Source of the DNA: a virus
Lineage: Duplodnaviria > Caudoviricetes
IMG/VR virus record: IMGVR_UViG_3300031857_000262
Coordinates: 1-53,088 of that record
Direction: 5' to 3' (one strand)
DNA: 53,088 bases
Part shown: in pieces, positions 15,529 through 15,626 of the stretch
Layout of the letters: the number at the start of each line of letters is the position of its first letter
How positions within the stretch are numbered: position 1 is the stretch's first letter
The notes under the pieces: model-generated
Seen by the model: the letters and a program-made list of their open reading frames with translations, nothing else
Told to the model about the DNA's origin: nothing
Database searches by the model: none
Translations under genes and position numbers: made by a program

Positions 15529-15626
15529 GAGTCAGTAGTTCAATGGTAGAACGCGAAATTGGAGCACAGTAATGTGTGTGGTACCCGTTTAAGGCGTGAA
15601 TACAGGTTCGATTCCTGTCTGACTCA
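15529..15626 (+). ncRNA. tRNA-like RNA with enlarged, non-canonical anticodon region
   Basis: acceptor GAGTCAG/CTGACTC, D arm GTTC-AATGGTA-GAAC, T arm ACAGG-TTCGATT-CCTGT; about 48 nt between the D and T arms. Confidence 0.75.

What the first reader, a model, noticed from the sequence alone, without database searches (positions are those of the whole stretch)
15529..15626. tRNA body with canonical D and T arms but a ~25 nt enlarged anticodon region containing a second GUAA hairpin
Seen: perfect acceptor stem, canonical D loop (AATGGTA) and T loop (TTCGATT), but the segment between them is about 48 nt, has no 5 bp/7 nt anticodon arm, and contains GCACA-GTAA-TGTGT. The same GUAA tetraloop caps the mimic at 15210. 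Its acceptor (GAGTCAG) resembles that of the tRNA-Lys (GAATCAG). Inference: a second mimic derived from the same tRNA, or a tRNA with a very short intron, too small for a group I intron.
Basis: partly seen in the sequence, partly recalled or inferred. Interest (0 to 1): 0.7.

Follow-up and report, generated by a model that had tools for sequence, protein, structure and literature searches.

The report
Phage tRNA look-alike with extra arm
A freshwater phage carries a gene for an RNA that keeps the full core of a lysine/arginine-type tRNA but has 27 extra bases that add a fifth arm, so it probably does not read codons; it sits in a fast-changing row of tRNA look-alikes whose job is unknown.

Summary
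Window 15529-15626 (+) scores 50.9 bits on Rfam's tRNA model (cut-off 29), with 39 nt where the model expects 13. Default ARAGORN misses it.

It is not an ordinary class II tRNA. I found no support for an intron. The 21 nt before the T stem align in register with the anticodon arm and variable loop of the neighbouring tRNA-Lys/Arg (12-13 of 21; shuffle P 0.002/0.0004). So it is a Lys/Arg-family paralogue with a 27-nt insert after G26: a GUAA-capped hairpin followed by a weak hairpin that displays UUUAA.

It recurs 97% identical in a phage whose polymerase is 61% identical and whose flanking DNA is 66-70% identical. Two of the three differences are a compensatory A15:U48 to G15:C48 change, so the tRNA L-shape looks selected.

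It is absent from 14 of 15 relatives (no Rfam tRNA match of this kind in any). It lies in a variable array of tRNA-like cassettes.

Best reading (0.35): a non-decoding tRNA mimic acting through its tRNA core, possibly as a decoy. Expression is unshown.

The scan has noted other anticodon-less phage tRNA mimics on other DNA, but not this sequence.

The parts
15529..15626 (+). Whole tRNA-shaped gene, 98 nt including discriminator A15626. No encoded CCA. T at -1 (15528). T-rich trailer TTTTGTT from 15627.
   Evidence: Rfam tRNA 50.9 bits, E 2.6e-9. 95 of 98 nt identical in L042:4395-4492. Sequence read.
15529..15535 (+). Acceptor stem 5' strand GAGTCAG. It pairs 7/7 with 15619-15625 (CTGACTC). 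Pair 3:70 is G-C, not G:U.
15538..15552 (+). D arm GTTC-AATGGTA-GAAC with A14, G18, G19 and A21. Position 15 (15543) is A here and G in L042.
15554..15580 (+). 27-nt insert between G26 (15553) and the vestigial anticodon arm. It has a 10-nt linker CGAAATTGGA, the hairpin GCACA-GTAA-TGTGT (15564-15577) and 3 nt GTG.
   Evidence: Alignment with tRNA-Lys/Arg places one 27-nt gap here. Hairpin pair probability is 0.42-0.70 in the core-constrained ensemble. The hairpin has a single copy in the window and is found nowhere else in IMG/VR except L042's contig.
15581..15598 (+). Vestigial anticodon-like hairpin displaying TTTAA (TTT at 15588-15590). By homology the register is GTACC-CGTTTAA-GGCGT, giving 'UUU' with G33. 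By thermodynamics and ARAGORN it is TACCC-GTTTAAG-GCGTG, giving 'UUA' with U33. G15587 is C in L042.
15599..15601 (+). End of the variable loop. T15601 (position 48) is C in L042 and covaries with position 15 (A15:U48 to G15:C48, the Levitt pair).
   Evidence: position assignment from the Rfam alignments
15602..15618 (+). T arm ACAGG-TTCGATT-CCTGT, with G53, T54, T55 (Psi55 in RNA), C56, A58 and C61.
15434..15527 (+). Preceding cassette of the array (AGATCGACGG...CCGTCGATCT, then TTTTT). Its end can also form a small terminator-like hairpin at 15508-15520. L002 has a different 89-nt block in place of window 15446-15623.
15210..15277 (+). 68-nt tRNA-like 'mimic' with a GUAA-capped short arm, at the 3' end of a conserved structured RNA (about 15085-15280).
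15772..15844 (+). Canonical tRNA-Lys(UUU), the paralogue of the element. L002 and L003 carry the same body with anticodon UCU (Arg).

Best explanation
The element is a real tRNA-derived gene under selection. It is a paralogue of the phage's own Lys/Arg-type tRNA that gained 27 nt between nucleotide 26 and the anticodon stem. The RNA therefore has five arms: acceptor, D, a new GUAA-capped hairpin, a weakened anticodon-like hairpin showing UUUAA, and T.

Shown: the tRNA core is complete, conserved and kept by a compensatory change, while the anticodon branch is not canonical.

Inferred: it is transcribed with the neighbouring cassettes. The host's RNase P (cut between 15528 and 15529), a 3' processing enzyme and the CCA-adding enzyme, all of which read only the acceptor/T helix and the D/T elbow, would release it. 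The resulting RNA of about 101 nt does not decode.

Most likely it acts in trans through its tRNA body, as a decoy or competitor for a host factor that binds tRNA. That factor could be a tRNA-targeting defence nuclease or a toxin aimed at tRNA-Lys, because the element keeps A73 and a UUU triplet. This would make it one cassette of a fast-changing accessory array.
For: Core: Rfam tRNA 50.9 bits. By direct reading U8, A14, G18, G19, A21, G53, T54, T55, C56, A58 and C61 are all present, with 7/7 acceptor, 4/4 D and 5/5 T pairs.

Selection: window and L042 differ at 3 of 98 nt although their polymerases are 61% identical and the flanking DNA aligns at only 66-70%. Two of the three differences are positions 15 and 48 changing together, A:U to G:C. 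My rough estimate is that this happens by chance about 1 time in 100.

Origin: the 21 nt before the T stem match the Lys/Arg anticodon arm and variable loop at 12/21 and 13/21. This is the best of 28 offsets, with 200,000-shuffle P of 0.0020 and 0.00044.

Non-decoding: default ARAGORN finds no tRNA. The Rfam model skips the whole anticodon arm. The vestigial stem has 4 of 5 pairs in either register, two of them G:U in the homology register and one in the other, with an A-C or C-C mismatch or a bulge. Position 33 (or 32) is G in one phage and C in the other.

Architecture: in the ensemble with the core fixed, both sequences prefer two hairpins, with pair probabilities of 0.42-0.90.

Accessory array: every convincing tRNA-like cassette in the lineage is co-oriented and followed by TTTT. 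Content differs between phages with 99% identical polymerases. L002 swaps window 15446-15623 for another block, L005 lacks 15282-15837, and L002/L003 carry Arg(UCU) where the window has Lys(UUU). L032 and L033 carry a 67-nt version with a 4-nt loop in place of the anticodon loop.

Published context, seen as search listings and abstract starts only: phage tRNAs counter tRNA-targeting defences (PMC10264068, PMC11464382, PMC11555353).
Against: I have no evidence that the element is expressed. Only two sequence variants exist, so nothing can be said about pairing inside the insert, and the insert's conservation may simply reflect recent transfer. The closest relatives (L002 and L005, 99% polymerase identity) lack the element, so it is dispensable.

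The decoy role is pure inference: no partner protein or host is known, and I found no tRNA enzyme among the 26 reading frames searched (24 plus-strand ORFs and 2 minus-strand ORFs).

The vestigial hairpin still shows a plausible 7-nt loop, and A73 is kept, so charging or decoding is not excluded.

In L032 and L033 the lone mimic sits 8-10 nt behind a stop codon, which fits a cis role as well. The array's real tRNAs have A15 with C48, so a canonical Levitt pair is not indispensable in this lineage.
Confidence: 0.35

Rival explanations
1. Cis-acting RNA punctuation. The tRNA-like cassettes exist only so that RNase P and 3' processing enzymes cut the long transcript there, or so that a stable structure followed by a U tract ends or protects the upstream RNA. 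The released tRNA-shaped piece has no function of its own.
For: All cassettes are co-oriented with the genes and followed by a T run. In L032 and L033 the single mimic begins 8-10 nt after a stop codon and the next gene follows about 55 nt later. The conserved structured RNA upstream always ends in a tRNA-like module. Only the core, which is what the processing enzymes read, shows constraint. Terminator-like sites are enriched in the region: 6 found against 1.0 expected.
Against: One tRNA-like module would be enough, yet the window has three plus a true tRNA within 640 nt. Rapid gain, loss and swapping between phages with 99% identical polymerases is more typical of accessory loci than of basic RNA processing. 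Near-identity of the whole 98 nt, insert included, across phages of 61% polymerase identity is not required for a cut site.
Confidence: 0.22
2. A working aminoacylated tRNA with an extra arm. It would be either a tRNA-Lys(UUU) variant, possibly resistant to anticodon nucleases, or, in the register preferred by ARAGORN and RNAfold, a Lys-derived UUA (ochre) suppressor.
For: With the 27 nt skipped in silico, default ARAGORN calls a 73-nt tRNA with anticodon TTA in both the window and L042. That register keeps U33 and A37 in both phages. A73 is present, whereas the neighbouring tRNA-Lys has U73. AAA is the commoner Lys codon, 525 against 301 AAG. From recall: A73 and the anticodon are the LysRS identity elements, and the classical E. 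coli ochre suppressors derive from tRNA-Lys.
Against: The stem is weak and mismatched in either register. In the homologous register position 33 is G or C rather than U. TAA is the main stop codon, ending 32 of 54 genes, so an efficient ochre suppressor would be costly. In passages of the review PMC7609411 I found no natural decoder with an arm between the D and anticodon stems. A 27-nt insert at the D/anticodon junction may misplace the anticodon relative to the acceptor end.
Confidence: 0.15
3. An intron-containing pre-tRNA whose extra bases are spliced out to give a normal tRNA.
For: The size and position (26-27 extra nt in the anticodon region) suggested it. ARAGORN in intron mode returns a model. 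Skipping the 27 nt gives an ARAGORN-recognisable tRNA.
Against: The insert lies outside the anticodon loop. ARAGORN's intron model is a tRNA-Pro with a stem of G:U, C-G, G:U, A.G and A-U, a 10-nt intron and an unpaired region of about 22 nt as 'variable arm'. At 27 nt it is far too small for a group I intron, and no intron family matched in Rfam at E up to 10. I saw no bulge-helix-bulge motif by eye. The gene set is that of a bacterial phage, and from recall bacteria lack the tRNA splicing endonuclease.
Confidence: 0.05
4. A functionless remnant: a duplicated tRNA disabled by an insertion or recombination scar, carried along in a recombination-prone array and recently passed between phages.
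For: It is absent from 14 of 15 related contigs (no tRNA match of this kind in any of them; direct sequence comparison for four; no pattern match elsewhere in IMG/VR). Only 3 differences separate the two known variants, so the copies are young and there has been little time for decay. Cassettes share 3' ends (CYGGTTCTTTTT) that evidently recombine, as in the L005 deletion.
Against: Two of the three differences are a compensatory pair at a tertiary contact. All invariant core nucleotides are intact. The element is kept in two phage lineages whose surrounding DNA has diverged to 66-70% identity.
Confidence: 0.15

Closest known systems
The phage lineage's own tRNA-Lys(UUU)/tRNA-Arg(UCU) (window 15772-15844; L002 4764-4836; L003 4397-4469)
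   Same: 48-50 of 72 aligned positions. The acceptor is 6/7 identical and the D and T loops are of the same type. The anticodon arm and variable loop are homologous in register. It has the same orientation and T-rich trailer, and the same slot behind an AGATCG cassette as in L003.
   Different: It has 27 extra nt after G26, a degenerate anticodon stem, G or C at position 33 (or 32), A73 instead of U73, and a canonical 15:48 pair where the true tRNAs have A15/C48.
Phage T4 small stable RNAs rnaC and rnaD (species 1 and 2; AF158101 70908-71171)
   Same: They are non-decoding RNAs of about 120-140 nt encoded beside tRNA genes; they lie next to tRNA-Arg and are annotated 'small, stable RNA'. rnaC ends in an acceptor plus T-arm module. 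From recall, their function has been unknown for decades.
   Different: They score only 17.5 bits (E 0.83) on a tRNA-type model and have no recognisable D arm. My element is a complete tRNA core at 50.9 bits with one added arm. No sequence similarity was tested or seen. Their processing and stability are known from experiments (recalled); here nothing is known.
Intron-bearing tRNAs (37/38 introns of eukaryotes, archaea and their viruses; group I introns in bacterial and phage tRNA genes)
   Same: Extra bases in the anticodon region of an otherwise normal tRNA gene. About 25 of the 84 enlarged viral tRNAs from my broad scan are plain tRNA-Tyr(GTA) with an intron after position 37.
   Different: The insert here lies 5' of the whole anticodon arm. 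There is no canonical exon stem, no BHB motif (by eye) and no group I fold (27 nt; no Rfam hit).
Irregular and class II-like tRNAs (long variable arm; allo-tRNA-like polycistrons with an extra loop between acceptor and D stem; review PMC7609411, passages read; PMC5389517, listing only)
   Same: tRNA bodies with an additional arm or loop. Some are reported as polycistrons, and some could not be charged.
   Different: Their extra element lies in the variable region or between the acceptor and D stems, and they keep a normal anticodon arm. Here the extra arm is between the D and anticodon stems and the anticodon arm is degenerate.
Phage tRNAs that defeat tRNA-targeting defences (T5 tRNA-Lys against PARIS, PMC11464382; anticodon-loop variants, PMC10264068; tRNA-Tyr against a retron effector, PMC11555353; listings and abstract starts only)
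   Same: A phage-borne Lys-type tRNA body in a small tRNA island, with altered anticodon-loop positions. Lys(UUU) and Arg(UCU) alternate in near-identical phages.
   Different: The published cases are functional decoders that replace the cleaved host tRNA. This element probably cannot decode, and no defence system or host is known for it.
YrlA-type bacterial and phage Y RNAs with a tRNA-like domain (PMC4201824, listing and abstract start only)
   Same: A non-decoding RNA that mimics the tRNA elbow; such RNAs also occur in phages.
   Different: No Rfam family other than tRNA matched at E up to 10. The 5' and 3' ends here form a normal acceptor stem. No Ro60-like gene was seen among the 26 reading frames searched.

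Membership tests
Canonical tRNA (Rfam RF00005) | Score above the curated cut-off on the tRNA covariance model | tested here: met
   50.9 bits against a cut-off of 29, E 2.6e-9, full model 1-71
Canonical tRNA (Rfam RF00005) | 7-bp acceptor, 4-bp D stem with G18G19, 5-bp T stem with a TTCGAnn-type loop, and R15:Y48 | tested here: met
   Direct reading. The 15:48 pair is kept as A:U (window) and G:C (L042).
Canonical tRNA (Rfam RF00005) | 5-bp anticodon stem with a 7-nt loop (U33, purine 37) directly after nucleotide 26; total length about 72-95 nt | tested here: not met
   The model skips the arm, with 39 nt in place of 13 positions. Default ARAGORN makes no call. The best candidate arm is displaced by 27 nt and has a mismatch or bulge. 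Length is 98 nt.
Class II (long variable arm) tRNA | A normal anticodon arm followed by a paired variable arm of 13-21 nt | tested here: not met
   Default ARAGORN, which finds class II tRNAs, makes no call. There are 49 nt between the D and T stems, about 10 more than class II allows by my count. In intron mode ARAGORN needs a 10-nt intron plus an unpaired 'arm'.
Intron-containing tRNA | Intron in the anticodon loop (37/38) or a bulge-helix-bulge at the junctions, or a group I fold | tested here: not met
   ARAGORN -i gives only a poor tRNA-Pro model. The alignment puts the insert at 26/27. There is no intron family in Rfam at E up to 10. BHB was judged by eye only.
Intron-containing tRNA | A spliced form exists in RNA | not testable with these tools
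   The runs laid gave no usable cover of 15531-15626.
tmRNA | G3:U70, no D stem, internal tag reading frame; detected by ARAGORN or Rfam | tested here: not met
   Pair 3:70 is G-C and there is a full D arm. No tmRNA was found by ARAGORN or Rfam.
Phage tRNA-like small stable RNAs (T4 rnaC/rnaD type; a loose class, not a curated family) | A non-decoding RNA with a tRNA-like acceptor/T module encoded among phage tRNA genes | tested here: met
   Array position beside tRNA-Lys. The T4 comparison comes from the record's annotation and a weak model hit.
Phage tRNA-like small stable RNAs (T4 rnaC/rnaD type; a loose class, not a curated family) | Accumulates as a stable processed RNA in infected cells | not testable with these tools
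   No usable RNA data for the element.

The most novel reading that the evidence does not exclude
The element is a dedicated RNA decoy in a phage counter-defence tRNA island. It would be a Lys-type tRNA rebuilt with an extra GNRA-capped arm, a UUUAA-displaying hairpin and A73 kept, so that it still engages a tRNA-Lys-specific host factor such as a PrrC- or PARIS-type anticodon nuclease or an acceptor-end toxin, but is not itself needed for translation. It would soak up the defence while the neighbouring true tRNA-Lys or tRNA-Arg refills the pool. That would be an RNA-based inhibitor of tRNA-targeting immunity, and a natural five-armed tRNA fold.
Probability: 0.12. Interest if true: 0.85.

Novelty: new variant of a known kind. 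Interest (0 to 1): 0.5.

Why it matters
Phages have long been known to carry odd tRNA-shaped RNAs of unknown function, such as T4 rnaC and rnaD. Recent work shows that phage tRNAs can be weapons against tRNA-cleaving defences.

This element offers a clean case. Its ancestry is visible (a Lys/Arg tRNA), its remodelling is precise (one 27-nt arm at the D/anticodon junction), there is a sign of selection on the tRNA fold, and the surrounding array changes between near-identical phages.

If the RNA is made and binds a host factor, it would show how a decoder is turned into a decoy, and that a tRNA core tolerates a fifth arm at a place where I found none described.

My broad scan also shows that enlarged tRNA-shaped genes are common in uncultured viruses: at least 84 distinct sequences for a single D-arm/T-loop pattern. 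The class deserves systematic study. If the element is only a processing mark or a remnant, it is of local interest.

Tried and rejected
- **Ordinary tRNA or class II tRNA:** rejected.
- **Rod-like extended anticodon arm**, in which an AAA of the insert pairs with the UUU ('self-masked anticodon'): considered because the isolated middle folds that way at -7.9 against -7.8 kcal/mol. With the core fixed, those pairs have probability 0.07 in the window and 0.003 in L042, whose G-to-C change breaks the helix. Rejected as the main fold.
- **Mini-ORF:** the insert reads GGAG, 7 nt, then ATG and 5 codons to TAA (MCVVPV; MCVVPL in L042). I noticed this but have no test, and it overlaps both hairpins, so I treat it as coincidence.
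- **Ochre suppressor:** see the rivals. Six or seven TAA-ended genes are followed in frame by the next gene, which is about what chance gives.
- **Mobile insert:** the hairpin sequence has one copy in the window and occurs nowhere else in IMG/VR except L042's contig.
- **Search for more homologues:**
  - The phage GenBank collection gave no match.
  - An IMG/VR body pattern found only L042's contig.
  - A metagenome scan found one contig carrying the same element sequence as L042's and, over the stretch read, matching L042.
  - Two scans of 185,579 species' genomes with the 3' and 5' halves gave 0 matches.
  - Covariation inside the insert therefore cannot be assessed.
- **Expression:**
  - One run search and one laying of three RNA-library runs and one DNA run.
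  - No RNA-library contig covers 15531-15626, so nothing follows for the element.
  - The DNA run covers 15460-15911 without differences.
- **Minus-strand ORFs 15416-15640 and 15205-15396:** no PHROG family; taken as spurious.
- **tRNA-related enzymes:** none among the 26 reading frames searched. The rest of the window's ORFs were not searched.
- **Literature:**
  - Searches (the last swamped by unrelated words), plus passages of PMC10690425 and PMC7609411, gave no description of a tRNA with an arm between the D and anticodon stems, nor of this array.
  - Supplementary files were not open and may list such RNAs (for example the candidate RNAs of PMC10690425).
- **Other enlarged phage tRNAs:** group A (L006-L027) and L028 stand alone, without other tRNAs in the four loci checked. 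Not pursued.
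Full report
**What is there.** The window is an uncultured-virus record of 53,088 bp. Window 15529-15626 (+) reads as follows:
- a perfect 7-bp acceptor stem (GAGTCAG/CTGACTC);
- TA;
- a D arm GTTC-AATGGTA-GAAC;
- G26;
- 48 further nt;
- a T arm ACAGG-TTCGATT-CCTGT;
- discriminator A, then a T-rich trailer.

Rfam's tRNA model matches end to end at 50.9 bits (cut-off 29, E 2.6e-9). It treats 39 nt as an insertion replacing 13 positions of the anticodon arm. Default ARAGORN reports only the neighbouring tRNA-Lys(UUU) at 15772-15844.

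**Not a class II or intron tRNA.** ARAGORN with introns allowed forces a tRNA-Pro(UGG). That model has a stem of G:U, C-G, G:U, A.G and A-U, a 10-nt intron and about 22 unpaired nt as 'variable arm'. I do not find this credible. No intron or other RNA family matched at E up to 10. The neighbouring genes are those of a bacterial tailed phage:
- UvrD-type helicase, ATP-dependent ligase, UDG and a PD-(D/E)XK nuclease;
- a MazG-like protein, Sak4 and a family A polymerase;
- primase, gpA-type terminase and DUF7831.

**Ancestry.** MAFFT aligns the element with the Lys/Arg tRNAs of the lineage using a single 27-nt gap placed right after nucleotide 26. The 21 nt before the T stem (GTACC CGTTTAA GGCGT GAAT) match the anticodon arm and variable loop of tRNA-Lys at 12 of 21 positions and of tRNA-Arg at 13 of 21. 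This is the best of all 28 ungapped offsets. In 200,000 shuffles the score was reached with frequency 0.0020 and 0.00044. Overall the element shares 48-50 of 72 aligned positions with these tRNAs. In L003 the tRNA-Arg lies directly behind a cassette ending CGATCTTTT. The element lies in the same position behind the window's cassette ending CGATCTTTTT. I conclude that it is a paralogue of the array's Lys/Arg tRNA with a 27-nt insert (15554-15580).

**Fold of the enlarged region.** The middle folded alone gives a rod (-7.9 kcal/mol) and a two-hairpin form (-7.8) as near-equals. I then fixed the acceptor, D and T arms. Under that constraint both known sequences prefer two hairpins:
- GCACA-GUAA-UGUGU at 15564-15577, with pair probability 0.42-0.70;
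- a second hairpin at 15582-15598 showing GUUUAA, with pair probabilities 0.56-0.90.

The rod's AAA:UUU pairs reach only 0.07 in the window and 0.003 in L042.

The register of the second hairpin is ambiguous. Homology gives a loop C-G-UUU-A-A, that is anticodon-like UUU with G33. Thermodynamics gives G-U-UUA-A-G, that is UUA with U33. ARAGORN agrees with the second register once the 27 nt are skipped in silico. Either way the stem carries a mismatch or a bulge.

**Relatives.** The polymerase gene (16872-18764) retrieved 15 related IMG/VR contigs.
- The element is present in one of them, L042 (4395-4492; polymerase 61% identical), and in one metagenome contig carrying the same element sequence as L042's.
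- Window and L042 copies are identical at 95 of 98 nt, while the flanking DNA aligns at only 66-70% or not at all.
- The three differences are D-loop position 15 (A to G), the last variable-loop base, position 48 (T to C), and G15587 to C in the loop of the second hairpin.
- Positions 15 and 48 form the Levitt tertiary pair of tRNAs (established knowledge, recalled). A:U has become G:C.
- I estimate roughly a 1% chance that two of three random changes would hit partner positions and be compensatory. This is the main evidence that the L-shaped core is under selection rather than decaying.
- The insert's conservation is not informative, because the copies are so young.

**The array.** A scan for a 7-bp acceptor abutting a T hairpin found these convincing cassettes, all co-oriented and each followed by TTTT:

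| Phage | Cassettes |
|---|---|
| window | 15210-15277, 15529-15625, 15773-15842 |
| L002 | three |
| L003 | two |
| L004 | one |
| L005 | one |
| L032 | one |
| L033 | one |
| L042 | two |

- L032 and L033 carry a 67-nt tRNA body with a 4-nt loop in place of the anticodon loop (51.6-51.8 bits).
- Content changes between phages whose polymerases are 99% identical. L002 replaces window 15446-15623 by an unrelated 89-nt block. L005 lacks 15282-15837, with the breakpoint in the shared GGTTCTTTTT ends.
- L002 and L003 have anticodon UCU where the window has UUU.
- The remaining seven related contigs show no convincing cassette.
- A promoter-like site lies before the tRNA-Lys, but none lies directly before the element. 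The end of the preceding cassette can form a small terminator-like hairpin.

**Mechanism.**
- Shown: an intact, selected tRNA core; a non-canonical anticodon branch; membership of a variable cassette array.
- Inferred: maturation by RNase P, a 3' processing enzyme and the CCA-adding enzyme, which read only the core (established knowledge, recalled), giving a stable non-decoding RNA.
- Role: I favour action in trans as a tRNA decoy, at 0.35. The reasons are that the array behaves like an accessory locus, that it alternates Lys(UUU) and Arg(UCU), and that the element keeps A73 and a UUU triplet. From recall, tRNAs of these two kinds are targets of anticodon nucleases. From listings and abstract starts only (PMC11464382, PMC10264068, PMC11555353), phage tRNAs are known to counter tRNA-targeting defences.
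- Rivals: cis-acting processing or 3'-end element (0.22); working charged tRNA with an extra arm, Lys or ochre suppressor (0.15); remnant (0.15); spliced pre-tRNA (0.05).
- Against the suppressor: TAA ends 32 of 54 genes.
- Against any firm claim: I have no evidence that the element is expressed, the host is unknown, and only two variants exist.

**Comparison with known things.**
- The closest described analogues are the small stable RNAs rnaC and rnaD of phage T4. They are annotated next to tRNA-Arg in its tRNA cluster. rnaC ends in an acceptor/T module but scores only 17.5 bits on a tRNA-type model.
I checked only the T4 annotation.
- The review of non-canonical tRNAs (PMC7609411, passages) mentions irregular polycistronic tRNAs with an extra loop between the acceptor and D stems. 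It mentions no arm between the D and anticodon stems.
- My five literature searches found no description of this array.

**Generality.**
- A pattern scan with this element's D arm found 23 other IMG/VR stretches with enlarged tRNA bodies: 22 of one family and L028.
Of these, 95 have an intact acceptor and T stem, and 84 are distinct.
- ARAGORN of the 84 by default, 58 only with introns allowed, and 4 not at all.
- About 25 are ordinary tRNA-Tyr(GTA) with a 37/38 intron. Others are rods or carry hairpin inserts next to an anticodon-like loop.
- This scan has also noted anticodon-less phage tRNA mimics in at least 26 other genomes, but not this sequence.

**Verdict.** The element is a real tRNA-derived RNA gene under selection, with a new architecture: a fifth arm at the D/anticodon junction. 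It belongs to the old, unexplained class of phage tRNA look-alikes, and its function is open.

Noticed in passing
window 15085-15280 (L002 4163-4368, L005 4755-4962, L003 4140-4400, L004 5135-5385, L042 4128-4395): A conserved structured RNA with no Rfam match. RNAalifold on 6 phages gives 47 pairs, 14 of them with compensatory double changes. It has a 9-bp closing helix (CTCTTTGGG/CCCAAAGAG, which is CTGTTTGGG/CCCAAACAG in others) and a hairpin with a CCTAA loop. It ends in a 68-nt tRNA-like module whose 3:70 pair is G:U in 5 of 6 phages, which from recall is the alanine identity pair.
   Followed up: partly
window 15772-15844; L002 4764-4836; L003 4397-4469: The same tRNA body carries anticodon UUU (Lys) in the window and UCU (Arg) in L002 (polymerase 99% identical) and L003. 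Positions 32 and 35 differ. This is an anticodon switch between near-identical phages.
   Followed up: partly
window 15282-15837 versus L005 4948-4956: L005 lacks the whole stretch holding three cassettes. The junction lies in the GGTTCTTTTT shared by the 3' ends of the first mimic and of the tRNA-Lys, which suggests cassette loss by recombination between tRNA-like ends.
   Followed up: partly
window 14900-15530 (runs X17, X20, X21): Contigs from RNA libraries of relatives (85-99% alike) cover 14900-15210 and 15316-15530. One stops near 15200 and runs into what I recall as Illumina adapter letters. A 93-nt contig joins 15043-15069 to 15216-15278, but its side is under 31 nt, so it does not count as a joint. 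DNA carry-over cannot be excluded.
   Followed up: no
window 23191-24246 and 11782-12678: A PF18909 (dATP/dGTP diphosphohydrolase N-terminal) domain, E 5.5e-17, occurs together with a MazG-like pyrophosphatase. From recall, this pairing is seen in phages that replace adenine by 2-aminoadenine. No PurZ was looked for.
   Followed up: no
L006-L027 (22 IMG/VR loci) and L028 8013-8095(-): Unrelated phages carry tRNA bodies with the same D arm and an enlarged anticodon region. One family has a stem AAGTC/GACTT closing a loop of about 25 nt with a variable A run. L028 has a 6-bp stem closing a 36-nt insert with a hairpin followed by GTGTAAA. ARAGORN found no other tRNA genes in the four loci checked.
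   Followed up: partly
L046-L164 (scan): At least 84 distinct viral tRNA-shaped genes have 20-34 extra nt between the D and T stems. Besides ordinary intron-bearing tRNA-Tyr, these include long perfect rods in place of the anticodon arm (e.g. L050, L077, L087/L138, L099/L107) and hairpin inserts just 5' of an anticodon-like 7-mer (L091/L095).
   Followed up: partly
window 15560-15592: The insert reads GGAG, then 7 nt, then ATG TGT GTG GTA CCC GTT TAA: a Shine-Dalgarno-like motif and a 6-codon ORF. It is kept in L042, where the last codon is CTT. Probably coincidence.
   Followed up: no
window 15434-15527: In the cassette before the element, the 5' strand AGATCGACGG and an internal CGACGG can both pair with CCGTCG(ATCT). 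This gives alternative folds, a 10-bp closing helix or a small terminator-like hairpin followed by TTTTT.
   Followed up: no
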